Part shown: in pieces, positions 7,200 to 20,065 of the stretch
Layout of the letters: every line of letters starts with the position of its first letter
How positions within the stretch are numbered: the stretch's first letter is position 1
Source: Alphaproteobacteria bacterium
GTDB lineage: Bacteria; Pseudomonadota; Alphaproteobacteria; JAAXGF01
NCBI GenBank assembly: GCA_963555825.3
Contig: CAUVXB020000001.1
Span: 928,001-992,000 of the forward strand
Length of the DNA: 64,000 nt
Direction: 5' to 3'
The notes under the pieces: generated by a model
Told to the model about the DNA's origin: nothing
What the model saw: the letters and a program-made list of their open reading frames with translations, nothing else
The model's database searches: none
Program-made: the position numbers and the translations under genes

Positions 7200-8265
7200 A
7201 TGGAACTGTATGTTGGAATGGATGTATCGCTCAAGGAGACCTCGATACGCCGCCTTCATTTCAACGCCGTACACAAGATTCTGCGTGGTCGATGACAACG
7301 GCGAGATCGTGTCCGAGGGCGTGGTGATCTCGGAGCCGGCGGCAATCGCGGCGTATATCAGGACAACGGCGCCGCACGCAAAGCGCATCGGTCTGGAGAC
7401 CGGTCCGACGACGACCTGGCTGTGGCATGAGCTCAGGGCGCTCGGCTTGCCGGTGATCTGCATCGATGCGCGTCATGCCAAGGCGGCGCTGTCGATGCAG
7501 ATCAACAAGAGCGACCGGAACGATGCCGCCGGGATCGCGCGGATCATGCAGTGCGGTTGGTACAAGGAGGTCCAAGTCAAGAGCGTGGCGTGCCACGAGA
7601 TACGGGCCGTCCTGAACAGCCGGGCCCAGTTGGTCAAGATCAAGCGTGATCTCGAGAACCAGATCCGTGGCTTGCTCAAGAACCTCGGCCTCGTCATCGG
7701 CAAGGCGGGCGGCAATGTCTTCCGTCGCCGGGTCGAAGAGCTGCTTGGCGGGCAGGGTCTTTTGTCGGAGGCCGTTCGGCCCCTTCTGGAAGTCCGCGAG
7801 AAGGTCGGCCGAGAGATCGCCGCGCTCTATCGCAAGCTGCTGGGCCTGGCGCGGAACGACGAGGACAGCAGACGTTCCATGACGGTTCCAGGCATCGGGC
7901 CGATCACCGCCTTGGCCTTCCACTCGGCGATCGACGAGCCGAGCCGCTTCCGACGTTCCCGGAGTGTCGGCGCGTACATCGGGCTGACGCCGCGCCGCCA
8001 TGCTTCCGGCGAGGTCGATTGGACGGGGCGGATCTCCAAATGCGGCGATCGAATGCTCAGGACCTACCTCTTCGAGGCGGCCGGCGTGCTGCTCACCCGG
8101 GTGCCGCGATGGTGCGCGCTCAAGGCCTGGGGTCACAGGTTGTGGAAACGCATCGGCTTCAAGAAGGCCAAGATCGCCGTGGCACGGAAGCTGGCGGTCA
8201 TCCTCCATCGCATGTGGCGTGATGGAACGGACTTCATCTGGTCAACCAAGGAGGCGGCCGCATAG
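7200..8265 (+). pseudogene. IS110 DEDD recombinase/transposase, frameshifted by a 34-nt insert
   Basis: MELYVGMDVSLKETS then frame change to CVVDDNGE, GLETG, KSDRNDA, VPGIGPITA, GLTPRRHASG, ISKCGD. Confidence 0.88.
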
Positions 8266-8500
8266 GGAAACAACGTCCAAGCATTCCGCGAGAGCGGAAC
8301 CGATGTCCCTGTCGGGACGGCGGCGTCGGCGAGATCGATCCAGGCTTTGCGATGCCTCACCGAGGCAAGCGCGCTTCACACATTGATCCGCCAACGTCCT
8401 CCAACGCCATCATGCGGAGGGCCGAGCCCCTACCGCGGAGAGAACAGTGAACCCGGCAGGTACGTCACGGAGAGCTTGACAACCAACCCCCGAGTTAGAG
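8266..8500 (+). ncRNA. Putative bridge/seek RNA of the first IS110
   Basis: TCCAGGCT 8339-8346 and TTCACACA 8375-8382 match the target; ACGCCAT 8404-8410 and AGAGAACA 8439-8446 match the IS ends; boundaries approximate. Confidence 0.8.
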
Positions 8501-8624
8501 AACATTGATCCGCCAACGTCCTCCAACGCCATCATGCGGAGGGCCGAGCCCCTACCGCGGAGAGAACAGTGAACCCGGCAGGTACGTCACGGAGAGCTTG
8601 ACAACCAACCCCCGAGTTAGAGAA
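8381..8624 (+). repeat. Perfect 122-bp tandem duplication
   Basis: 8381-8502 equals 8503-8624. Confidence 0.95.
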
Positions 8625-8913
8625 CAGCCTGGACCCTATGCGGACATAAGACGTTCTGGGACCGCGTGCCTAATGTCGCCGCCATGACGGCGATTGATCC
8701 CGTAGCATCCCTGTCGCCCGACAGGACGGGCGTGTGCTGCGCGGGTCGAAGTGCGGACCACAGTCTTTCGTGACAGCTCGGGACCGAATACGCGGTCGGA
8801 TGCCCATTCCGCTGTCATTGTTGGCGGTTGTGAGAAGCCATCTGGGGAATTCCGGTTAAGACAGTGGCCTTCTCAACGACCGGCGTTCAAGATAGTACAA
8901 ACCCAATCGAATT

Positions 8914-10544: not shown

Positions 10545-11822
10545 TCAGAAGAAGACATAAGATCGGACCACGATGTTCTTGCGGCAGGGAGCGTCGTCGG
10601 GCGCGGTTGGGTCGATGCAGGCAGTGTGGAAAGACCAGCGCGAGACGGAGCCGTCGGTGACAGAGTCATAGCACTTGAGCATCGAGACCTCGGTGGGCTT
10701 CTGCTCGGGAAACCAGTACCACTCGTGGTCGGGGCGGTGGGTGAAGCGGGTGGTCTCGCCGACGCGGTCGTCGTAGACCCGGTAGTTGGTGATGTACGGC
10801 TGGTCGGCGAAAGAGGGCCACGCGCAGAGCACGAAGGGGTTCTGGCGCACGGTCTCCATCGGCTTGGCGAGGTTGATCGACATGAACCGCCGCGACATCT
10901 TCGCGTCGGCCTGCTCCTCCGTGTAGTGCTGCTCGCGCCCGAAGTTTCGCAGGTTCTTCGTGAGCAGCTCGCGGCAGCGCACGCGGCCACTGTTGTCGTT
11001 CAGGTCGTTGTGCACGATGTTGGCGTATTCGACGTTTACACCCGGGTTCTTGTTGTCCTGGTCCTCCGTGCGGTCGCCTTTGTAGTCTTTGTTAAAGACG
11101 TCGTGGTTGTACACGAGCGCGTCTGTCGCGTCCGGGAAGGACGCCAAGAGGAGCTTCTCCATCTCCGGGTAGAAGACGCGCTCCACCTCCGCCGCGTCGT
11201 AGAAGTCCTCGCACTTGGACTCGCAGTGAGCCAACGCGACACCGAGCCTGTCCATGCACGCCGGGCTGTAGGGCGAGAGTCCTGGGTAGTATTCCTCCAT
11301 CCGTCGCGCGTCGCGCAACACCTGCGGAAAGTAGAGGCATCGCCGCCCGGTGTCCTCCTCGGCCTTGCGCAACGCCTTTGTCTCGGCCTCGCGCGCCGGG
11401 TCCCGCCAAAGTGCGTTGGACGACACGACGGAGTAGGACGGCTGCTCGTTGATGGTGTAGCGCAGCGGCAGCGCGACACCGCCTTCAGGGACTTCGATGT
11501 TGTTCGCCCGAATGTACTCCAAGCACTCATCGTAGCCACGAAACCCGACGCCCCACCTGGTTTCGATCGGGCCGGGGGGAGCGTTCTCGAGCATGTCGAT
11601 AACCGCCTGGCCCTTGCCCTCGGCAATCTGGATGAGCGCCGCCTCCGTCGCCGCGGCGGTTCCCGCATCCCCGCCCCGATCGAACGACATGTAGGATAAA
11701 CCTCCGTTCGCAGCGATGGGTGGTGGCTGCCCTTCTGTGAGTTGGAGGGGAGGCACATAGGCCGACGAAACTGTCGCCGCAACCGACGCAACGTGGTTCT
11801 CGATGACCTTGAGCCGGTCCAT
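10545..11822 (-). CDS. CmcJ/NvfI-like oxidoreductase with long N-terminal extension
   Basis: VHND, HEWYWFPEQKPTEV..LKCYDS, SFHTACIDP, RKNIVVRSYVFF resemble this family; start taken at MDRLK. Confidence 0.65.
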   Translation of the reverse strand: MDRLKVIENHVASVAATVSSAYVPPLQLTEGQPPPIAANGGLSYMSFDRGGDAGTAAATEAALIQIAEGKGQAVIDMLENAPPGPIETRWGVGFRGYDECLEYIRANNIEVPEGGVALPLRYTINEQPSYSVVSSNALWRDPAREAETKALRKAEEDTGRRCLYFPQVLRDARRMEEYYPGLSPYSPACMDRLGVALAHCESKCEDFYDAAEVERVFYPEMEKLLLASFPDATDALVYNHDVFNKDYKGDRTEDQDNKNPGVNVEYANIVHNDLNDNSGRVRCRELLTKNLRNFGREQHYTEEQADAKMSRRFMSINLAKPMETVRQNPFVLCAWPSFADQPYITNYRVYDDRVGETTRFTHRPDHEWYWFPEQKPTEVSMLKCYDSVTDGSVSRWSFHTACIDPTAPDDAPCRKNIVVRSYVFF

Positions 11823-11943
11823 AGCATGCTCCCGGTTAAAAACACCCCATCGTGGCACACAGGGCTTGTATTTGTTAGGGCTTGTATTTCTTGGTCACAC
11901 GAACGTACGCCCGCCTGCCGCGCAGCCAATGTCCGAAAATGGG

Positions 11944-13171
11944 GGCGGTCTCAATGGGTCGACGCAACACTTTATCTTGAACGAAGAGATGGAGTGTATG
12001 CAGATGACGCGAAGAAATGGTCGAGGGTTCAGTTCGGCAGAGAAGACGGAGCTTTGGGACCGCTGGCAACGCGGGGAGTCGTTGAAGGCGATTGGTCGGG
12101 TGTTTGGTAAGCCGTCGTCGTCGATTTATTTCCAACTATCGCCGCACGGCGGGATCCGGCCTTCGCCACGACGGCGCTCGCGGCTGGCGTTGAGCCTATG
12201 GGAACGCGAGGAGATCTCACGGGGGATCGTGGCCCGGCACTCGATCCGATCGATGGCGTTGTTGCTGAGCCGGTCGCCCTCGACGGTGAGCCGGGAAGTT
12301 CGCCGCAATGGCGGTTATGATCAGTATCGTGCCGCGCTTGCCGATGACATGGCCTGGGCTCGAGCGCGACGCCCGAAGCGATGTAAGCTGGCACTGAGTT
12401 CGGGGATGCGGCGGGTGGTGGCGATGAAGCTCGGGTTGAACTGGTCACCGGAGCAGATCGCCGGATGGCTCAAGCGAGCGCATCCAGGAGCTGGGTCTTA
12501 TCAGGTGTCTCACGAGACGATCTATCGCAGTTTGTTTGTTCAAGCCCGCGGTGTGCTTAAGAAGGAGCTGCTTCAGCATCTTCGATCGAAGCGCACGATC
12601 CGACGCTCGAAAGAGGCGCGCCGGAAAGGCGTTGGCCGGGGTCAAATCACGGACATGGTGTCGATCCGTGAGCGCCCGGCCTCGGTCGAAGATCGGGCGG
12701 TGCCGGGTCACTGGGAAGGTGATCTGTTGTCGGGATCGAAGAACAGCTACATCGCGACCCTGGTCGAACGTCAAACGCGTTACGTGATGTTGGTAAAGGT
12801 TGCCAACAAGGAAACCCTGACAGTGGTATCCGCGCTCATCAGGCAGGCGAGGAAGCTGCCGACCGAGCTCTACAAGTCCCTGACCTGGGACCGGGGCAAG
12901 GAACTCGCGGACCATCGCCGGTTCAGCTTGGCGACCGACATCGATGTCTACTTCTGTGATCCGCAAAGCCCGTGGCAACGGGGTTCCAATGAGAACACTA
13001 ATGGCCTGCTCAGACAGTACTTCCCCAAAGGCACCGACGTGTCGGTATACTCGCAGGCTCATCTGAACAAAGTGGCGCGTCAGCTCAACGAACGGCCACG
13101 CAAAACCTTGGGGTTTGAAACACCGGCAGAGAGATTCAACGCTTGTGTTGCATCGACCGGTTGAGGCGGCA
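11944..13171 (+). mobile_element. IS30 family element
   Basis: 26-bp imperfect IRs GGCGGTCTCAATGGGTCGACGCAACA / TGTTGCATCGACCGGTTGAGGCGGCA; flanking GG duplication. Confidence 0.9.
12004..13164 (+). CDS. IS30 transposase
   Basis: WSPEQIAG, GHWEGDL, LTWDRGKE, PWQRGSNENTNGLLRQYFPKG; start could be 11998. Confidence 0.95.
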   Translation: MTRRNGRGFSSAEKTELWDRWQRGESLKAIGRVFGKPSSSIYFQLSPHGGIRPSPRRRSRLALSLWEREEISRGIVARHSIRSMALLLSRSPSTVSREVRRNGGYDQYRAALADDMAWARARRPKRCKLALSSGMRRVVAMKLGLNWSPEQIAGWLKRAHPGAGSYQVSHETIYRSLFVQARGVLKKELLQHLRSKRTIRRSKEARRKGVGRGQITDMVSIRERPASVEDRAVPGHWEGDLLSGSKNSYIATLVERQTRYVMLVKVANKETLTVVSALIRQARKLPTELYKSLTWDRGKELADHRRFSLATDIDVYFCDPQSPWQRGSNENTNGLLRQYFPKGTDVSVYSQAHLNKVARQLNERPRKTLGFETPAERFNACVASTG

Positions 13172-13312
13172 GGTAGTAGCTGACATTGCGACGGATTAGC
13201 CAGCATGTCCGGTTCCCGCTCGTAAGCAGATGGGGTGGATGGCTCCCGCTCCCGGCACCGAGATGCCAAAGTGGTGGTTGTTATCAACCACGAGCAAGAG
13301 GAGCTATCCGCC

Positions 13313-13668
13313 ATGAAAGTTACCACTGTCGGCCTCGATCTGGCCAAGAACGTTTTCCAAGTCCACGGCATTGACAGCACCGGCAAGGTCATCGTCCGCC
13401 GATCGTTGCGCCGGCGCCAGATGATGCCGTTCTTCGGCAAGCTGGAACCGTGTCTGATCGGTATCGAGGCGTGCGGCACGAGCCACTTCTGGTCCCGCGA
13501 GCTCCAGGCATTGGGGCACGAGGTGAAATTGATGCCACCGATCTACGTCAAACCATACGTCAAGCGCGGCAAGACCGACGCCGCCGATGCGGAGGCGATC
13601 TGCGAGGCGGTGACTGACGCGCCCCACGATGCGGTTCGTCGCGATCAAGTCGGCCGAGCAGCAATCGG
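13313..13668 (+). pseudogene. IS110 transposase N-terminal fragment
   Basis: MKVTTVGLDLAKNVFQVHG, GIEACG, KTDAADAEAICEAV; small TGAC duplication near 13612; cut by the IS3-like element. Confidence 0.9.
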
Positions 13669-13703
13669 TGTATCGCACCCGGTTCCTTGGACACAAGTTT
13701 GTC

Positions 13704-14615
13704 TCATGCGGCGGGCCTGAGTGACATCGCGGTGTGCCACGCCTGACGAGCTTGAGCGGGGCTCAGGTAGCCGTTCTTCTCCACGATCCACTGGGCATTG
13801 TACTGTTCGACGAACCCGCGGACGGCGTTCCGCAGCTCCGCGATGTTGCGGTAGATGCGGCCATGGATGATCTGTTCCTTGAGCGTGCGATTGAACCTCT
13901 CGGCGACGCCGTTGGTCTGGGGCTGTTCGACGAAGGCGTAGGACGGCTGGATGCCCCAGAACTTGATCTGGTTGGTGAAGTGGTCCGACAGATACTGGGA
14001 GCCGTGATCCATCCGCAAGGCCAGCCCCCGCGCCGCACCGGCGGAGGTCGAGGCATACAGCCTCGCAAGCCCCATGGAGATCGGCTGAAGGGCGGCGAAG
14101 CGGTCGCCTCGCTTGCACACATGCCAGCCGACGCACTCGGCGTTCCAATGCTCGATGGCGGTGAATATCCAGCCCCAGCCGTCGTCCACCGTGAACACCC
14201 GAACGCCGTCCGTGCCCCACATGAGGTTGGGGGCATGGGTGATGATCTCACCGACATGGGGATTTCCGCCACGGCGGCGGCAGCGATGGGGCGAGAGCAG
14301 GTTGTTCTCGCGCATCACCCGGAGCCCCCGCTTGCGGGAAACACGGATGCCACGACAGACCCGAAGCCGAGCCCAGACCTTGCGGTGTCCCTCGCCCTCC
14401 CAGGGGGATGCCTCCAGGTCGGCCTCGATGGCCACCAGCAGAGCCTCGTCCGAGATCGAGGGCTTCGGTCCCCGGCGCTTTGCTGGTGGGCGCTCAGCGG
14501 TGGCCTGCTGCCGGGATTTCATGGCGTAGAACGAGGAACGGGCAAAACCCCAGGCCGCACAGACCCGCTGGAGGCCGTAGGCCAAACCCGTGCCGGGAGA
14601 GGTGGCGGCACTCAT
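13704..14615 (-). CDS. IS3-like OrfB, integrase-core DDE transposase
   Basis: WGTD, RMDHGSQY, PQTNGVAERFNRTLKE. Confidence 0.9.
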   Translation of the reverse strand: MSAATSPGTGLAYGLQRVCAAWGFARSSFYAMKSRQQATAERPPAKRRGPKPSISDEALLVAIEADLEASPWEGEGHRKVWARLRVCRGIRVSRKRGLRVMRENNLLSPHRCRRRGGNPHVGEIITHAPNLMWGTDGVRVFTVDDGWGWIFTAIEHWNAECVGWHVCKRGDRFAALQPISMGLARLYASTSAGAARGLALRMDHGSQYLSDHFTNQIKFWGIQPSYAFVEQPQTNGVAERFNRTLKEQIIHGRIYRNIAELRNAVRGFVEQYNAQWIVEKNGYLSPAQARQAWHTAMSLRPAA

Positions 14616-15043
14616 CGCCGCGACCTCCGCCGCCCCAAAGGGCCGGACGTCTCCGTCTTGGCCTCCAGCAGTTCCACCTGCATGATCAACTCCCCGATCC
14701 GCTTCATGGCGATGTCCAGTTCCGCCTTCACCGGATCGCCCTTGCGTTCCTTGAGCGAGGCATCGATCCCGGCGATCGCCTTCTCACGCCACTGCTCGAG
14801 CCGGAAAATCTCCACGCCCAACTGCCGCGACAAAAGTTCCACCGGCTCGCCACGCAAAAGCCGCAGGGCAACCTCACGCTTGCGCGTCACCGTCCACCGC
14901 TGGCCAAGTCCCAGCGGGCCTGCCGGCGAAACCTGGCCCGGGGAAAACGTGGACGAGCCAAGCTCGCCCTCGTTTACCACAGGCCCATCAACAGCAACTT
15001 TGTTCTCAAAATTGTCGGTCATGTTCCGGTCCTCCTTGGACAC
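14612..15043 (-). CDS. IS3-like OrfA, HTH protein
   Basis: RKREVALRLLRGE, KRIGEL; ATGA overlap with orfB. Confidence 0.8.
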   Translation of the reverse strand: MSKEDRNMTDNFENKVAVDGPVVNEGELGSSTFSPGQVSPAGPLGLGQRWTVTRKREVALRLLRGEPVELLSRQLGVEIFRLEQWREKAIAGIDASLKERKGDPVKAELDIAMKRIGELIMQVELLEAKTETSGPLGRRRSRR

Positions 15044-15847
15044 TTCGATTAAGCCAATTCTGTGTCCAAGGAAATCGGGTCCGACTCACAAAGGGCTACT
15101 CGCCGCGGCGGCTGACGGCAGACGAGGAAGCGGCGCTGGCGGCGGTCATCATCGCCGGGCCGGAGCCTGAGCGCGACGGGGTTTGCGCCTGGACCCGGGC
15201 CGATCTGTGCCGCTGGCTGGAGGAGCGCTTCGCCAAGACCTACCACCCCTCGAGCATGACCCGGGTTCTACGGCGGATGGGATTTTCCCGCCAGAAGGCG
15301 CGCCCGAGCCACCCGCGAAGGGACGCCGAAGCGCAGGAGCGCTTCAAAAAAGGGGGCTTCGCGACATCCTGAAGGCGACCGCCGCGGCGCATCCCGACAA
15401 GCGCCTACAGCTGTGGTTTCAGGATGAAGCGCGCGTCGGCAACAAGGGCCGGGTGTGTCACCGGTGGTGGCGCAGGGGCGAGCGTGCCCCCGGGACGCGT
15501 CAAATCGGCTACCAGTGGGCCTACATCTTCTCCGCCGTGCGCCCGGACACCGGCGACGACGTCACCCTGGTGATGCCGAGCGTCAACGCCAAGGTCATGG
15601 ACCTGTTTCTCGCACACTTCGCCGATACCCTGGACCAGGATGCGCACGCCGTCATGATGTGCGACGGCGCCGGTTGGCACGACGAGCGCGCCCTCACCGT
15701 CCCCGACAACGTCACCTTGGCGCTGTTGCCGCCTTACAGTCCCGAACTCAACCCCGTCGAGCGGGTTTGGCTCTACCTACGCGAACGCTTCCTATCGCTC
15801 CGCGTCCTCGACGACACCGAGGCCATCATCGACGCCTGTTGCCAAGC

Positions 15848-17222
15848 GAGCTATTGTCAAAAGTTGTGTATGGGCTGATCATGCGGCGGCGCGATCCTGG
15901 CGTTCTCCATCTACGAATTTGACGCCGCGAATGATCTCGGCGAGATGGTTCGATCCATCGAGTTTTCTCCATTTTCTCTGAGCGCACTGGCATAGTTTGA
16001 AGACCATGGCCATCGCCGTCTTGCGCGACAGGCAGCCCTTGGTCCGGTAGGTGCGCAGACGAACCGTGGCGAACGTGCTCTCGATGGGGTTGGTCGTGCG
16101 TACATGCTTCCAGTGCTCGGCGGGGAAGTCGTAGAACGTCAGCAGGACGTCGCGGTCCTTGGCCAGGCAGGCCGCGGCCTTGTCGTACTTCGGCCCGTAG
16201 GCTTCCAGGAAGAAGTCGAAGGCGCTCTCGGCATCCTTCCTGGTTTCGGCCATCCAGATGTCTTGCAGGCGCCCCTTGGCTTTCTTTTGCAGACCCTTGG
16301 GCAGCTTGTTCAAGACGTTGCCCGTCTTGTGAACCCAGCAGCGTTGCTCGCGGGCGCCTGGGTAGACTTGGCGGAGCGCCTTCCAGAAGCCGAGCGCGCC
16401 GTCGCCGAGCGCCAGTTGCGGACCCATTTCAAGGCCGCGCCGCTTGAGATCGAGCAGAACTTCGAGCCAGGACTGCTCACTTTCGCGATAGCCGTCGGCG
16501 ATGGCGATCAGTTCCTTCTGTCCCTTGTCCGTGGCCCCGACGATCACCAGGATGCACTGCTTCTCTTCCTCCATGCGGGCGCTGAAATAGATGCCGTCCA
16601 CCCAGAAATAGACGTAGCGCTTGGCCGTGAGGTCGCGCCGTTGCCAGCGCTCCGCCTCAACCCCCCAGACCTCTTTCAGCCGGGTGATCGTGGAGGCCGA
16701 AAGCCCCGGCGCGGAGCTCCCCAGGAGCGCCGCCAAGGCTTCCCCGAAGTCGCCGGTGGAAATGCCCTTCAGATACAGCCATGGCAAAAGGTCTTCCAGG
16801 CTCTTGGCGCGGCGCAGATAGCGCGGCAGGATCGCCGACGTGAAGCGGATGGCGCCGTCCCCCCGGTCCCGCACACGGGGTTGGCGCACGCTCACCGGGC
16901 CGATCCCGGTCTGGATGAAGCGTTCCGGCAGATATCCATTGCGGACAACCCGGCGGCGGCCGGCGGCGTCAACAAGCGCCGCATGGCTACCCAAAAACAC
17001 GGAGACCTCGGCCTCAACGGCTTGGGCCAACAACTCGCGAGCTCCAGCTTGTAGGACTTCCGTCAACGGATCTTTCTGAAAATCAGATGGGTTTTGAAAA
17101 GCAACAACGGTATTCTCTTTCATGGCGTATCCTTCCTTGGCTTAGCTCAAGTGGTGACATCAACAATCACCAGGATACGCCGCCTTCATTTCAACGCCGT
17201 ACACAAGATTCGGTTATAGCTC
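15848..17222 (-). mobile_element. IS256 family element, intact
   Basis: IRs GAGCTAT.../...ATAGCTC; 9-bp target duplication TTGCCAAGC at 15839-15847 and 17223-17231. Confidence 0.95.
15879..17123 (-). CDS. IS256 transposase
   Basis: YFWVDGIY, GDGALGFW, QRCWVHK, RTTNPIES. Confidence 0.95.
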   Translation of the reverse strand: MKENTVVAFQNPSDFQKDPLTEVLQAGARELLAQAVEAEVSVFLGSHAALVDAAGRRRVVRNGYLPERFIQTGIGPVSVRQPRVRDRGDGAIRFTSAILPRYLRRAKSLEDLLPWLYLKGISTGDFGEALAALLGSSAPGLSASTITRLKEVWGVEAERWQRRDLTAKRYVYFWVDGIYFSARMEEEKQCILVIVGATDKGQKELIAIADGYRESEQSWLEVLLDLKRRGLEMGPQLALGDGALGFWKALRQVYPGAREQRCWVHKTGNVLNKLPKGLQKKAKGRLQDIWMAETRKDAESAFDFFLEAYGPKYDKAAACLAKDRDVLLTFYDFPAEHWKHVRTTNPIESTFATVRLRTYRTKGCLSRKTAMAMVFKLCQCAQRKWRKLDGSNHLAEIIRGVKFVDGERQDRAAA

Positions 17223-17312
17223 TTGCCAAGCATGGATCGACCTCATCGCAGAACCGGATCGTATGCGAACCCTCTGCGCCTATCCATGGATCATGAAGGT
17301 GATTTCATAGGC

Positions 17313-17720
17313 TCACTGGTATAACATGGCTAGAGGTACCAAGATAACCAATCTCTGTAAGATAATAATACCCCACGCTTTCCACAAACCGCCACTCAAT
17401 ATCCAAGTATCAAAAAAGAAAAAAGCAGGCCACGAAAACCCTACTTTTATGACTTCAGCCTCGTCATCCTCCGATATTTGGTAGATATCATAGGATCGTC
17501 CTGTTGTTTGATTTTCGGAAGATGAAGAGTTTGGCCCGATTATATGTGTAGCTTTCTGTGGCCTGATTTCTTCACCGCGTCGGAGCAAGATTTCTCTTGC
17601 CACATCCATCGCCTCACTCGTCCAATTTTCCCTGTTATTTTCAATCCAAAGGGAATGTAGCTCTTCGGTCGATTTTGGTTCTAACGACTGACGAATGCTC
17701 TTGTGTTGTTCGCTATCCAT
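17313..17720 (-). pseudogene. Low-GC DUF2628-like membrane protein, 3'-truncated by IS630
   Basis: KVGFSWPAFFF motif; ORF runs into the IS630 end at TA 17320-17321. Confidence 0.6.
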
Positions 17721-18038
17721 TTGTTCTCGCCTTCCTCGGAGAGCCGGAGCACCGTCGCGCCGCCATTTCCCAGATAACCTTTAAACCGGGATTCTCCAGA
17801 TGGCTTCTCCCAGCCACCTACAATGATAGTAGAATGGGCATCCGAGCGTGTATCCGGCTCTGCACTGGCACAATCGGCTGTCGTACGCACTTGATCGGGC
17901 TGATGTGTGACCTTATCGCTTTGTGTGTCATCCCGGTACGCTTGGGACAGTCGGTACGCTTTTAAGAGACAGACTTCTGACGCTGGCTCGCCGCCTTCGC
18001 CGTCTGCTGGTGATCGGCATGACATCACAGCTTCAATC

Positions 18039-18210
18039 GGCACGGCGCAAGCCCGAGGTTCACCCCTGGATCACCAACTTGCTGGTAAGCAAGCCCAACA
18101 AGCTGGTCGCCGTGGCCATGGCCAACAAGGCCGCGCGGATCGCCTGGGTCATCATGACCCGTGGCGAGGCCTACCGCGCTCACCGACCCGCAACTGAGGA
18201 GACCGCATGA
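18039..18210 (+). pseudogene. IS110 transposase C-terminal fragment
   Basis: HPWITNLL..KPNKLVAVAMANKAARIAWVIMTRGEAY. Confidence 0.85.
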
Positions 18211-18495
18211 CCAATTGATCGCTCGAAGGCACAACGCTTTCGACGATTGCAAGGACGACGAGACGTGATGGCGAACCGGTCAGACCGGGGATCGGGACAA
18301 CCCGACCAATGTCCTGGGTGTTCGAGCCCGCTAAGCGGACAACCCGACGAATGTCCTGGGTGTTCGAGCCCGCTAAGCAGATAGGGACCCGATCCACGGA
18401 TACCATCAGGGCCAGCGGTTCAACAAAACCGCATCAACAGGCCGGACACAAGACTGTACCTGACTAGGTCGCTACGCCGAAAAAAGTCCTTGCAA
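18211..18495 (+). ncRNA. Putative bridge/seek RNA of the second IS110, target loop duplicated (42 bp x2)
   Basis: AATGTC 18308/18350 and TAAGCGGA 18332 / TAAGCAGA 18374 match the target; CCATC 18403 and ACACAAGA 18446 match the IS ends; boundaries approximate. Confidence 0.72.
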
Positions 18496-18757
18496 CGCGG
18501 GAGCCATCCACACAGGACGTTACTGCACTGAATTTCCAAGCCTCGGCCTCGATGGTCCGCTATCCGCTCCAAAGCGGTCGCCCAGCGTGTGAGCCGCCGA
18601 AGTCGGTTGCTGACCCGAAGACGACCTTGGGGGTCCCGTGGACATCGGCGACAACCCGAAAAACAGTTCACTAAAGCAGGCAAAAATTTATGTTTGCCTT
18701 TCAGTCAAGCAGTGTCGGAACGTGGGACACTGGGTTGTCGTCGAAAATGAGGCGCAC

Positions 18758-20065
18758 ATGCAGGATCGAGAGACGTCCGATACCGAGAGCGATCTGATTT
18801 CGCGGGCAGCGAGGGTCCTGCCCGCCGGCGGTTTCGGCAATCTCGACCCTGGCATCGTCATTCGCGAGGGTCGCGGCGGCCGCGTCTGGGACGAGAGCGG
18901 CAACGAATATGTCGACTTTCTCATCGGCTCGGGCCCGATGCTGCTGGGCCACGGAAATCCCGAGGTCATCGAGGTGGTCGAGGCGCAACTGCGCAAGGGC
19001 GTGACATTCTTCACCTCGAACGCCGCCGGAATCGAGCTCGCCGAAGCGATCTGCGATGCGGTCGCCTGCGCCGAGCAACTGCGCTATGTCAGCACCGGCT
19101 CCGAGGCCGACATGTACGCCATGCGTCTCGCCCGCGCCCATACCGGCCGCGAGAAGATCCTGAAGTTCGAGGGCGGCTACCACGGCATGTCGGGCGAAGC
19201 GCTGATGAGCCTTGTCCCACGGCGGCTCGAAAATTTCCCACGTGCGATTTCCGATTCGGCGGGCATCCCGGAAGCCGTGCGCGACAGCGTGCTGGTGGCG
19301 CCCTTCAACGACGCCGCGTTCGCAAGGCAGCTCATCGCGGAATATGCCGACGAGATCGCCGGCGTGATCGTCGAGCCCTTTCAGCGGCTGATTCCGCCCG
19401 AGACGGGTTTTCTCGAGGCGCTGCGAGAGGCGACGACCGAGCACGGCATCGTGCTGATCTTCGACGAAGTCGTCACCGGCTTCCGACTGGCTTATGGCGG
19501 CGCGCAAGAACGCTACGGCGTGACGCCCGATCTCTGTACGCTCGGCAAGGTGATCGGCGGCGGCTTCCCGTTGGCCGCGATCGCCGGGCGCGCAGAGTTG
19601 ATGGCGCATTTCGACAAATCGAAAGTCGGCGCCGACGGCTTCACCTTTCAGGTCGGCACGCTGAGCGGCAATCCGGTCGCGGCCGTCGCCGGCCTGAAGA
19701 CATTGGAAATCCTGCGCCGCCCGGGCAGCTATGAGGGCATGCGCAAGACCGGGCGCGCGATCATGGCGGCGCTCGAGGCGAACCTGGCCCGCGTTGGCGT
19801 GCCGGCCCGCGTGGTCGGCGATCCAATGGTCTTCGACGCGGTCTTCACGGACCAGCCGGTCGTCGACTATCGCGGCACTCTGTGCGGCGACGTCGACCGC
19901 CTCCAGCGATTCAACATGGCCTTGCGGGCGCGGGGCGTCTTGAAAAACGGGAACAAGTTCTATATCGCGCTGGCCCATGACGCGACCGATATCGCCGACA
20001 CCAGGGAAGCGATCGAATTCGCGGCGGATTTCCTCGCCGATGTTCCCGATCGTGGTGGCGGCTGA
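18758..20065 (+). CDS. Class III aminotransferase (glutamate-1-semialdehyde aminomutase-like)
   Basis: STGSEA, KFEGGYHG, LIFDEVVTGFR, LGKVIGGGFP, GTLSGNP. Confidence 0.9.
   Translation: MQDRETSDTESDLISRAARVLPAGGFGNLDPGIVIREGRGGRVWDESGNEYVDFLIGSGPMLLGHGNPEVIEVVEAQLRKGVTFFTSNAAGIELAEAICDAVACAEQLRYVSTGSEADMYAMRLARAHTGREKILKFEGGYHGMSGEALMSLVPRRLENFPRAISDSAGIPEAVRDSVLVAPFNDAAFARQLIAEYADEIAGVIVEPFQRLIPPETGFLEALREATTEHGIVLIFDEVVTGFRLAYGGAQERYGVTPDLCTLGKVIGGGFPLAAIAGRAELMAHFDKSKVGADGFTFQVGTLSGNPVAAVAGLKTLEILRRPGSYEGMRKTGRAIMAALEANLARVGVPARVVGDPMVFDAVFTDQPVVDYRGTLCGDVDRLQRFNMALRARGVLKNGNKFYIALAHDATDIADTREAIEFAADFLADVPDRGGG

What the first reader, a model, noticed from the sequence alone, without database searches (positions are those of the whole stretch)
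18295..18381. Second bridge RNA has a tandemly duplicated target-binding loop with two guide variants
Seen: 42-bp tandem repeat (18295-18336, 18337-18378, one mismatch). Each unit carries AATGTC, complementary to the right target GACGTT with one G-U. The units end in TAAGCGGA and TAAGCAGA respectively; the latter is identical to the left target at 13223-13230, and the former matches the GCGGAC form of the local palindromes. Donor guides CCATC (18403) and ACACAAGA (18446, 7/8 to the right end) follow. Inference: this could be a dual-specificity or diversifying guide cassette, a minimal array. The junction again falls beside the core of the left-target guide, and the G variant may simply be created by that junction.
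Basis: partly seen in the sequence, partly recalled or inferred. Interest (0 to 1): 0.72.

Follow-up and report, generated by a model that had tools for sequence, protein, structure and literature searches.

The report
Duplicated guide loop in decayed IS1111
A 42-base piece of the guide-RNA gene of a broken jumping gene is present twice in a row; it looks like a recombination scar in dead copies, not a purpose-built guide for two targets.

Summary
Bases 18295-18336 and 18337-18378 are a 42-bp tandem duplication with one mismatch. Short-read contigs of a DNA run and of an RNA run from another study span the junction.

It lies in the target-binding loop of the bridge/seek RNA gene, 3' of the recombinase gene, in an IS1111-group element (IS = window 13228-18514, interrupted by about 4.3 kb of foreign DNA). 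The guide assignment is supported:
- Guides and flanks covary across relatives.
- The stems covary.

The "dual-specificity array" reading is not supported.
- Both units name the same half sites, CTAAGC and GGACATT, and differ by one base.
- The G variant lies beyond the exchange point and is made by the junction.
- Single-loop copies already insert at AAGC^GGAC sites.
- The duplication occurs only in 3 recombinase-less remnants. It is in 0 of 5 intact copies and 0 of 80 relatives.

Best reading: a scar. The junction CTAAGC^GGACAAC sits exactly at the predicted exchange point and has no microhomology. Seven other tandem duplications lie in IS1111-type 3' regions of this genome. I therefore favour half-site recombination by the element's own recombinase (about 0.45) over replication error (about 0.33). 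A working two-guide RNA: about 0.07.

The parts
13222..13227 (+). Left half of the insertion target (CGTAAGC ends here)
   Evidence: sequence. It is contiguous with the right flank in a paralogous empty site. It matches the left-target guide of the RNA.
13228..13247 (+). IS left end: 7-bp extension AGATGGG (13228-13234) and 13-bp subterminal inverted repeat GTGGATGGCTCCC (13235-13247)
   Evidence: sequence. It is the inverted complement of 18499-18511. The 7-bp/3-bp rule of IS1111 elements comes from PMC11187229 (passages).
13313..13615 (+). N-terminal 101 codons of the DEDD recombinase gene, then frame damage and a break near 13669
   Evidence: tblastn gives 100% identity to aa 1-101 of the intact paralog. 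Pfam PF01548, 3.9e-9. The blast alignment ends at 13669.
13670..17988 (.). Foreign DNA that interrupts the IS: rve-type transposase genes (13707-15043, minus strand), a DDE_3 transposase fragment (15183-15875), a Mutator-type transposase (15882-17123, minus strand) and an AT-rich unique stretch (17316-17994). 466 bp of the IS are missing.
   Evidence: Pfam; blast against intact copies; blast of 17124-17994.
17989..18210 (+). C-terminal 73 codons and stop codon of the recombinase gene
   Evidence: tblastn to aa 272-344, 98.6%; stop TGA at 18208-18210.
18211..18514 (+). Non-coding right end that encodes the bridge/seek RNA: 304 nt here, 263 nt in intact copies
   Evidence: The structure is conserved and covaries in 57 sequences.
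18287..18296 (+). 5' strand of the closing stem of the target-binding loop (GGGGATCGGG). The last two bases overlap unit 1.
   Evidence: RNAalifold columns 35-42 pair with 94-101 and show compensatory changes. Pair probability 0.82-0.85 in the duplicated RNA.
18295..18336 (+). Repeat unit 1: GG, ACAA, CCCG, right-target guide CGACCAATGTCC (18303-18314), distal hairpin (18315-18330), left-target guide CTAAGC (18331-18336)
18337..18378 (+). Repeat unit 2: the same parts, with guide CGACGAATGTCC (18345-18356), hairpin (18357-18372) and CTAAGC (18373-18378)
18379..18395 (+). AGATAGGG (resembles the IS left end AGATGGGG) and the 3' strand of the closing stem, CCCGATCC (18388-18395). Present once only.
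18403..18453 (+). Donor-binding part: CCATC (18403-18407, complement of GATGG at the IS left end), hairpin 18410-18443, ACACAAGA (18446-18453, equal to IS right end ACACA plus left end AGA)
   Evidence: The C/G position of this guide agrees with the right end in 57 of 57 sequences. Hairpin pair 123/139: GC 28, AU 21, GU 8.
18499..18514 (+). IS right end: subterminal inverted repeat GGGAGCCATCCAC (18499-18511) and 3-bp extension ACA (18512-18514)
18515..18522 (+). Right half of the insertion target (GGACGTTA)
   Evidence: empty-site paralog. It pairs with the right-target guide with one G-U.

Best explanation
The 84 bases are two head-to-tail copies of a 42-base piece of the target-binding loop of the bridge (seek) RNA gene. 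An IS1111-group insertion sequence carries this gene downstream of its DEDD recombinase gene.

The element works like its relatives:
- The 5' arm of the loop (CGAC[C/G]AATGTCC) pairs with the top strand just right of the insertion point (GGACATT..).
- The 3' arm (CTAAGC) equals the top strand just left of it.
- The next part of the RNA (CCATC ... ACACAAGA) reads the joined ends of the excised circle.

The duplication is not a second, differently aimed guide.
- Both units name the same half sites.
- The G variant lies past the exchange point and exists only because unit 2 starts with GGAC.
- The duplication is confined to three recombinase-less remnants.

I read it as a scar made by the element's own recombinase (inferred, not shown). 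The DNA that encodes the left-target guide (GCTAAGC^AGATAGGG) mimics the IS left junction (CGTAAGC^AGATGGGG). The GGACA at the base of the loop mimics the right half of the target. Exchange between these two half-matched sites, on sister chromatids or on two IS copies, gives exactly CTAAGC^GGACAAC and duplicates the 42 bases between them.

Shown: the anatomy, the guides and the distribution. Inferred: who made the junction.
For: Anatomy and guides
- The intact paralog has PF01548 and PF02371.
- There is a 13-bp subterminal inverted repeat with 7-bp and 3-bp extensions.
- Right guide against right flank: 257 of 348 positions match in 58 distinct pairs. Permuted mean 183, maximum 211, 0 of 10,000 shuffles reach the observed value.
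- Left guide against left flank: 261 of 318 positions match in 53 pairs. Permuted mean 207.5, maximum 232, 0 of 10,000.
- The stems covary in 57 sequences.
- The donor guide agrees with the right end in 57 of 57 sequences.

Not a second specificity
- Two paralogous empty sites read TAAGC^GGA.
- 3 of 5 independent insertions of this IS in the genome have GGAC on the right side.
- 36 of the 57 aligned sequences (56 relatives and one intact copy of this IS) have G as the first base after the IS right end.

Distribution
- The duplication is in 3 of 8 right ends in the genome. All 3 lack the recombinase gene upstream of about aa 272. It is in 0 of 5 intact copies.
- It is in 0 of 80 relatives.
- The junction word was not found in genome contigs or metagenome contigs.

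Origin
- The junction lies exactly after CTAAGC, and the partner starts with GGACA. There is no microhomology.
- A simple chance estimate is 6e-5. It is post hoc.
- Seven other tandem duplications lie in the 3' non-coding ends of two other IS1111-type families of this genome. Six of the seven end at the IS right terminus and share 2-7 core-like bases at the junction.
- The C/G difference between the units is also a polymorphism among intact copies. This fits an exchange between two copies.
- A preprint reports tandem non-coding repeat units at IS110 loci with one-sided donor matches, and cites half-match recombination by IS621 (10.64898/2026.08.14.744561; passages and section 8).
Against: - The left side of the upstream partner site (GGGATCG) does not match the left-donor guide, so only 3 of 4 half sites fit.
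- The argument from the junction position was made after seeing it.
- No reciprocal deletion product was seen.
- None of 80 relatives shows any such duplication, so the process, if real, is rare outside this IS-rich genome.
- The other duplications in the genome use the true right end. This one does not.
- Half-match activity is known to me only through the preprint's citation, which I did not read.
- A junction-spanning contig in an RNA library leaves room for an expressed RNA.
- The folded scaffold is predicted to survive the duplication, so loss of function is not shown.
Confidence: 0.45

Rival explanations
1. The same scar in dead remnants, but made by a replication or repair error (template switch or end joining), with no part played by the recombinase. 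The position of the junction is coincidence.
For: - Tandem duplications of tens of bases arise without any recombinase.
- The upstream partner site lacks a left-donor match.
- 0 of 80 relatives show recombinase-type duplications.
- The genome has 88 tandem-repeat clusters of period 30 or more, most of them outside IS elements.
Against: - There is no microhomology at the junction. Slippage normally uses some.
- The junction coincides to the base with the guide/exchange boundary, and the partner starts with GGACA. Chance estimate 6e-5, post hoc.
- Ten of the 88 clusters lie in IS1111-type 3' ends, which make up well under 1% of the genome.
Confidence: 0.33
2. A working two-guide bridge RNA. The remnant is transcribed, and its RNA is used in trans by the recombinase of the five intact copies. 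The two units give two target-binding loops, a minimal guide array.
For: - The non-coding RNA of IS1111 elements works in trans (PMC11187229, passages).
- The donor-binding part of the remnant is 98-99% identical to that of the intact copies.
- The closing stem and donor hairpin are predicted to persist.
- A junction-spanning contig is present in an RNA library.
- TAAGCGGAC matches the uninterrupted target.
- The duplication is kept in three copies.
Against: - Both units name the same half sites, apart from one base that also varies among intact copies.
- Only one 3' strand of the closing stems exists, so only one unit can sit in the native loop geometry.
- Single-loop copies already use GGAC sites.
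- 0 of 5 intact copies and 0 of 80 relatives have it.
- Two of the three copies are one segmental duplication.
- RNA-library contigs can be DNA carry-over.
Confidence: 0.07
3. A tolerated variant of a once-active element. The duplication arose in an intact IS that still transposed, using unit 2 with unit 1 as a bulge. That IS reached the window locus and the C1:1263 kb locus before both copies decayed.
For: - The window copy has a proper left and right junction in one target.
- The duplicated form is in two unrelated contexts.
- Their 5' breakpoints may differ by about 25 bp.
- The scaffold fold is kept.
Against: - The right flank at C1:1263 kb (GGCGGCAG..) does not match the right-target guide, and no left end is present there.
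- The breakpoints lie within about 25 bp of each other in a 1.4-kb element, which suggests common descent of the truncated piece.
- No intact copy with the duplication was found anywhere searched.
Confidence: 0.12
4. Assembly artefact.
For: All public contigs carry an extra C after 18236 that the assembly lacks, so the assembly has at least one small difference nearby.
Against: A contig of k-mer assembly spans the junction with 0 differences in two runs of different studies, at the depth expected for 3 of 8 copies. Three loci in the assembly agree.
Confidence: 0.02

Closest known systems
seekRNA of IS1111-family elements (ISEc11, ISPa11, ISKpn4; Siddiquee et al. 2024, PMC11187229: abstract, section 9 and passages read)
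   Same: - DEDD recombinase.
- Non-coding region downstream of the gene.
- Subterminal inverted repeats with 7-bp and 3-bp extensions.
- No target duplication.
- The top-strand match lies 5' of the bottom-strand match in the RNA.
- The RNA can act in trans.
   Different: Here the loop that holds the two target matches is duplicated in tandem, in copies that have lost the recombinase gene. No biochemical data exist for this element.
IS621 bridge RNA (Durrant et al. 2024, PMC11208160, passages on IS1111 read; Hiraizumi et al. 2026, PMC13626964, abstract read)
   Same: Two-part RNA with left and right target guides and left and right donor guides. Excision is also RNA-guided and reads the two junctions across both loops.
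   Different: The RNA sits at the 3' end rather than the 5' end, and the order of the guides is reversed. The base before the shared GA differs between target (G or A) and donor (A). One loop is duplicated.
Tandem non-coding repeat units at IS110 loci with one-sided donor matches (bioRxiv 10.64898/2026.08.14.744561; passages and section 8 read)
   Same: Tandem duplication beside or inside the non-coding end of IS110-family elements, ascribed to half-matched recombination by the resident system. The seven other arrays in this genome fit that description.
   Different: That survey required units of at least 50 bp and found left-donor matches at unit boundaries. The 42-bp repeat lies inside the target-binding loop, and its boundaries match target-type half sites (left target, right target), not the donor end.
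ISPpu9 / MITEPpu9 modules (Pares-Guillen et al. 2025, PMC12288879; abstract, sections 15 and 18 read)
   Same: An IS110-family element that targets REP-type repeats. It has separate right-hand modules, one of them linked to a 3' fragment of tnp, and tandem copies in some strains.
   Different: Ssr9 is not the guide RNA and is not needed for transposition. Those modules have their own end boxes, whereas the remnant here has no left end.
CRISPR or TIGR guide arrays (recalled; TIGR only from a search listing)
   Same: Repeated units that each carry guide sequence.
   Different: Those arrays have many units with different spacers, are processed into separate guides and are conserved in working systems. 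Here there are two near-identical units, one scaffold, and no conservation.

Membership tests
IS1111 group of the IS110 family | DEDD recombinase with the N-terminal DEDD/RuvC-like domain and the Transposase_20 domain | tested here: met
   The intact paralog (344 aa) matches PF01548 at 4.3e-15 and PF02371 at 7.5e-23. The window's N-terminal fragment matches PF01548 at 3.9e-9. The window copy itself is broken.
IS1111 group of the IS110 family | Subterminal inverted repeats of 11-13 bp with extensions of 7 bp (left) and 3 bp (right) | tested here: met
   GTGGATGGCTCCC at 13235-13247 and GGGAGCCATCCAC at 18499-18511 form a perfect 13-bp pair. AGATGGG precedes the first and ACA follows the second. 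The rule comes from PMC11187229.
IS1111 group of the IS110 family | Long non-coding region downstream of the recombinase gene | tested here: met
   263 nt in intact copies, 304 nt in the window copy.
IS1111 group of the IS110 family | Site-specific insertion without target duplication | tested here: met
   The left and right flanks are contiguous in a paralogous empty site..CGCTCGTAAGC|GGAAGTTACCGCACTGAATTTCC. The five independent insertions share ..AGC / [A/G]GAC[A/G]TT, except one with TTAC on the left.
Bridge / seek RNA | Two short segments in one loop that match the two strands of the target and change with it | tested here: met
   Permutation tests on 58 and 53 guide-flank pairs, with 0 of 10,000 shuffles reaching the observed value in each. 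Examples are in the table (L075-78, L102, L113, L114, L126).
Bridge / seek RNA | Segments that match the IS ends (donor) | tested here: met
   The guide ACA[C/G]AAGA agrees with the right end CA[C/G]A in 57 of 57 sequences, 37 with C and 20 with G. CCATC is the complement of GATGG at the left end; it is invariant, so there is no covariation test.
Bridge / seek RNA | Conserved secondary structure with compensatory changes | tested here: met
   RNAalifold on 57 sequences: 10 of 40 pairs show changes on both sides. Closing-stem pairs include AU 37/GC 20, AU 31/GC 18 and CG 42/UA 8. Distal hairpin: GC 36/AU 20. Rfam has no family for it.
Bridge / seek RNA | The RNA is made, binds the recombinase and is needed for transposition | not testable with these tools
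   There are only contigs of an RNA library over the region, and these could be DNA.
Multi-guide array (dual-specificity cassette) | Each unit is a complete guide module | tested here: not met
   The unit lacks the 3' strands of both closing stems, and these occur only once, after unit 2.
Multi-guide array (dual-specificity cassette) | The units specify different targets | tested here: not met
   Both units carry CTAAGC and AATGTCC. The differences are one base (C/G) that also varies among intact copies, and the bases after CTAAGC, which in the native RNA match the IS left end and not the target.
Multi-guide array (dual-specificity cassette) | Kept in working elements or in relatives | tested here: not met
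   - 0 of 5 intact copies.
- 0 of 80 relatives: 75 by anchor spacing, L065 and L101 by eye. L056, L061 and L123 do not hold the loop.
- 0 hits for the junction word in two public collections.

The most novel reading that the evidence does not exclude
The remnant is not dead weight. It is transcribed and supplies, in trans to the recombinase of the five intact copies, a natural bridge RNA with two target-binding units on one scaffold. One unit reads the left junction form (CTAAGC-AGA) and the other reads the uninterrupted target (CTAAGC-GGAC). That would bias insertion against excision, or widen target choice. It would be the first natural multi-guide bridge RNA.
Probability: 0.07. Interest if true: 0.8.

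Novelty: new variant of a known kind. Interest (0 to 1): 0.36.

Why it matters
As a guide array it would matter a great deal, but the evidence is against that reading.

What remains is smaller and still useful:
- It is a clean natural example of an IS1111-type bridge RNA whose four guides can be read from covariation.
- The base before the shared GA travels with the right-hand partner.
- The duplication junction falls to the base on the guide/exchange boundary.

If the recombinase made it, the DNA that encodes a guide is itself a weak substrate of the system. That bears on off-target and self-target events when bridge recombinases are used as editing tools. It would also extend the recently described tandem expansion of IS110 loci to target-type half sites and to units under 50 bp.

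Tried and rejected
- Rfam has no family over the region; its only hit in the window is a tRNA.
- Single-sequence folds are not better than shuffles (z -0.99 and -0.87), so the structure rests on covariation.
- The first DNA alignment mixed strands, because the loci were stored in genome orientation. I read only the plus-strand rows from it and repeated the comparison in scripts.
- The first anchor-spacing script picked up spurious matches inside the gene and was replaced.
- I corrected them and sent them again.
- The junction word gave 0 hits in genome contigs and 0 in metagenome contigs. Records of the window's own genome may be left out there.
- The promoter and terminator scan of 17300-18800 found none.
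- I could not settle how the truncated piece came to be at both the window locus and C1:1263/1714 kb. The two latter are one segmental duplication of about 4.5 kb with an insertion, between a solute-binding protein gene and a large gene of unknown family. The 5' breakpoints are the same or about 25 bp apart. The right flank there is not target-like.
- Perfect 11-mer targets are few in the genome (AAGCAGACATT 4, AAGCGGACATT 3, AAGCAGACGTT 1, AAGCGGACGTT 10), so there is no abundance argument for or against a second guide.
- I considered a self-pairing GGACA/TGTCC within the loop. It does not covary (L055 and L126), and I dropped it.
- For the second IS110-type element, I could not fit its ends to the 7-bp/3-bp rule.

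Full report
OBSERVATION

TRF finds a 42-bp unit present 2.0 times at 18295-18378, with 97% matches and score 161. From the sequence itself, unit 1 is 18295-18336 and unit 2 is 18337-18378. The only difference is C at 18307 against G at 18349. The bases outside the repeat do not continue it: 18294 G against 18336 C, and 18379 A against 18337 G. The junction is therefore fixed to the base and has no microhomology.

Public contigs confirm the repeat. In DNA run X1 a 73-nt contig covers 18307-18379 without a difference, at depth 34.8. The contig shared by all copies of the element has depth 89.9. The ratio is 0.39, and 3 of 8 copies would give 0.375. The same contig is present in RNA run X15, from another study, at depth 3.7. 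These are contigs, not raw reads, and X1 may be the sample of origin.

WHAT SURROUNDS IT

The repeat lies 85 nt downstream of the stop codon (18208-18210) of the last 73 codons of an IS110-family recombinase gene. The first 101 codons of that gene are 4.6 kb upstream, at 13313-13615 (Pfam PF01548).

Between the two pieces lie other mobile-element genes and a unique AT-rich stretch:
- rve-type transposase genes,
- a DDE_3 transposase fragment,
- a Mutator-type transposase.

466 bp of the element are missing.

The ends are a perfect 13-bp inverted pair, GTGGATGGCTCCC at 13235-13247 and GGGAGCCATCCAC at 18499-18511. IS1111 elements carry 7 bp outside the left repeat and 3 bp outside the right one (PMC11187229, passages). 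By that rule the element runs from 13228 (AGATGGG) to 18514 (ACA).

Two paralogous repeats in the same genome support this placement. One reads ..CGCTCGTAAGC|GGAAGTTACCGCACTGAATTTCC, so the window's left and right flanks are contiguous there. The other reads ..GTTCCTGCTCGTAAGC|GGACCC. It follows that:
- the two halves in the window are one original insertion into ..CGTAAGC^GGACGTTAC..;
- the AGA at 13228-13230 belongs to the element;
- the target has G at that place.

THE RNA AND ITS GUIDES

I fetched 80 relatives of the recombinase with their flanks. These are the best 80 of 527 confirmed, with 60-92% identity, and come mostly from Alphaproteobacteria. All hold a well conserved 3' non-coding region.

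In an alignment of 57 distinct sequences, RNAalifold predicts the following:
- a closing stem (window 18287-18296 with 18388-18395) with compensatory changes: AU 37/GC 20, AU 31/GC 18, CG 42/UA 8, and GC 28/AU 14/GU 14;
- a short inner stem;
- a distal hairpin (GC 36/AU 20);
- a second hairpin further 3' (GC 28/AU 21/GU 8).

The two single-stranded arms between the closing stems and the distal hairpin behave as guides. The reverse complement of the 5' arm matches the DNA right of the element, and the 3' arm equals the DNA left of it. Both change together with their flanks. Examples:
- ATCAACAGA in L075-78,
- GTGAACTGT in L102,
- GGACAGGC in L113,
- GACGTACC in L114,
- a changed core in L126.

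Permutation tests:

| Side | Distinct pairs | Matching positions | Permuted mean | Permuted maximum | Shuffles reaching observed |
|---|---|---|---|---|---|
| Right | 58 | 257 of 348 | 183 | 211 | 0 of 10,000 |
| Left | 53 | 261 of 318 | 207.5 | 232 | 0 of 10,000 |

The informative stretch is about 5 bases on the left (TAAGC) and 7-8 on the right (GGACATTx).

Further 3', ACA[C/G]AAGA agrees with the right end of the element in 57 of 57 sequences. CCATC is the complement of GATGG at the left end. ACACAAGA is 8 of 8 to the predicted circle junction (ACACA from the right end, AGA from the left end).

The order of the guides (top-strand match 5' of bottom-strand match) and the 3' position are those described for IS1111 seekRNAs (PMC11187229, section 9; PMC11208160, passages).

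WHAT THE DUPLICATED UNIT HOLDS

The unit runs from the last two bases of the closing stem's 5' strand to the end of the left-target guide. It contains the inner stem's 5' strand, the right-target guide, the distal hairpin and the left-target guide. It does not contain the 3' strands of the two closing stems, which occur only once, after unit 2.

Both units carry CTAAGC and AATGTCC. They differ in two ways:
- At one guide position there is C in unit 1 and G in unit 2. Both alleles also occur among the intact copies: C in two, G in three.
- The bases after CTAAGC are GGACAA after unit 1 and AGATAG after unit 2. GGACAA is simply the start of unit 2. AGATAG is the native sequence, and it resembles the element's own left end, not the target.

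The G variant is therefore not needed to reach AAGC^GGAC sites. Single-loop copies already sit in such sites:
- the window copy itself,
- 3 of 5 independent insertions of this IS in the genome,
- 36 of the 57 aligned sequences, which have G as the first base after the right end.

DISTRIBUTION

The genome has six left ends and eight right ends of this element.
- Five copies on contig 2 are full length (about 1395 bp, recombinase gene intact, 98-99% identical). They represent four independent insertions, since two share their flanks. All have a single unit.
- The duplication is in three right-hand pieces on contig 1: the window, C1:1262881-1263402 and C1:1714256-1714792. All three begin at about codon 272.
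- The last two lie in one segmental duplication. Their right flank does not look like a target.

Among the 80 relatives none has a duplicated loop:
- 75 show the single-loop spacing.
- L065 and L101 are single by eye.
- L056, L061 and L123 do not reach the loop.

None of the 80 has a repeated right-end module. A relative in another genus of the same family has the single form at 83% identity. The junction word is absent from genome contigs and metagenome contigs.

FOLDING

With the RNA taken from GATGGC to the outer stem, the closing stem keeps a pair probability of 0.71-0.74 in the single form and 0.82-0.85 in the duplicated form. The donor hairpin is unchanged, and the interior of the loop is rearranged. 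The scaffold is thus predicted to survive. Whether the recombinase accepts it cannot be computed here.

HOW IT AROSE

The junction CTAAGC^GGACAAC falls exactly where the left-target guide ends, which is the point at which target DNA is joined to the element.

The downstream parental site, GCTAAGC^AGATAGGG, is a close copy of the real left junction, CGTAAGC^AGATGGGG. The upstream parental site, GGGATCG^GGACAACC, resembles the right half of the target (GGACA) but not the element's right end. The junction reads like an emptied target.

Three of the four half sites fit the guides. A naive chance figure for this placement is 6e-5, but it is post hoc.

The genome also holds seven other tandem duplications in the 3' non-coding ends of two other IS1111-type families:
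- periods 122, 630 and 203 in one family;
- periods 134, 94, 66 and 296 in the other.

Six of the seven end at the right terminus of the element and share 2-7 core-like bases with the internal partner. One joins the left-donor guide's DNA to the right end. With the three copies of the 42-bp repeat, that makes 10 of the 88 tandem clusters of period 30 or more in the genome.

A 2026 preprint describes such tandem non-coding units at IS110 loci, with one-sided donor matches. It ascribes them to half-match recombination (10.64898/2026.08.14.744561; passages and section 8). Excision is also RNA-guided across both loops (PMC13626964, abstract).

I therefore favour a recombinase-made scar (about 0.45) over a replication or repair error (about 0.33). 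Either way, the feature is not an evolved two-target guide (together with the "tolerated variant" reading, about 0.9).

WHAT STAYS OPEN
- A junction-spanning contig in an RNA library.
- The known action in trans of these RNAs.
- The intact donor-binding part.

These leave a small chance (about 0.07) that the remnant supplies a working RNA.

PRIOR LITERATURE

I found no paper on a duplicated target-binding loop. The search for 'bridge RNA' + 'tandem duplication' + 'IS110' returned only the preprint above. The searches for IS1111 with 'bridge RNA' and with 'seekRNA' listed nothing on it by title or abstract.

VERDICT

The bridge-RNA reading is right. The array reading is not supported. Interest is moderate to low.

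Noticed in passing
window 8380-8626: There is a perfect 122-bp tandem duplication (2.0 copies, 100% matches). It lies in the 3' non-coding end of a second IS110-family element, whose recombinase gene is at about 7297-8262 (Pfam PF01548 and PF02371). The unit ends at the element's right terminus, and the junction shares ACA with the natural flank. Other copies of this element in the genome carry different right-end duplications, 630 bp x2 and 203 bp x3, or none.
   Followed up: partly
genome G000: C1:169596-170187, C1:2233729-2233920, C2:1402803-1403073, C2:2097664-2099490: A third IS1111-type family (56% aa identity to this one) carries tandem arrays of its donor-binding part plus right end, with periods 134, 94, 66 and 296 bp. 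The 66-bp array joins the DNA of the left-donor guide (ACACATG) to the right end. The 134-bp array starts 4 nt after the left-target guide core. This matches the tandem non-coding units described in bioRxiv 10.64898/2026.08.14.744561.
   Followed up: partly
window 18236: All four public runs laid have an extra C after 18236 in every contig over that place, as do the five intact copies in the assembly. The three duplicated copies in the assembly lack it. Either this is a real marker of the remnant lineage that the k-mer contigs collapse, or it is a homopolymer error of the assembly.
   Followed up: no
window 13616-13669: The N-terminal part of the recombinase gene is damaged before the break. 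Translating 13315-13668 (entered two bases off the gene's frame, which starts at 13313) stopped on two stop codons, and the tblastn match to the intact paralog ends at aa 101. The copy decayed in more than one step.
   Followed up: no
window 11803-13164 and 13165-13227: An rve/HTH_38 transposase gene (453 aa) ends about 60 bp before the insertion point. The target of the IS lies in a short repeat next to that element's end, and the repeat has paralogs elsewhere in the genome.
   Followed up: partly
C2:2721575-2722965 and C2:3616753-3618140 (genome G000): Two intact copies with identical flanks, in opposite orientation, carry AACGTC instead of AATGTC in the right-target guide. That would pair perfectly with the window's right flank GACGTT, but their own flank is GACATT. 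Guides and flanks of individual copies are often one base out of step.
   Followed up: no
window 18267-18272 with 18503-18508: RNAalifold pairs GATGGC at the start of the RNA with GCCATC inside the right subterminal inverted repeat. The pair is invariant in 57 sequences, so it is untested. The stretch GTGATGGCGAACC also resembles the left inverted repeat.
   Followed up: no
window 17316-17720 (minus strand): An AT-rich open frame of 135 aa has no Pfam match and no other copy in the genome. It is lodged between the transposon debris and the right-hand piece of the IS.
   Followed up: no
runs X1-X20: The stretch is held by runs labelled sponge metagenome, by runs of five coded organisms and by marine sediment metatranscriptomes. 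The bacterium is probably a widespread host-associated marine alphaproteobacterium. Its genome is unusually rich in insertion sequences: dozens of IS110-family hits.
   Followed up: no
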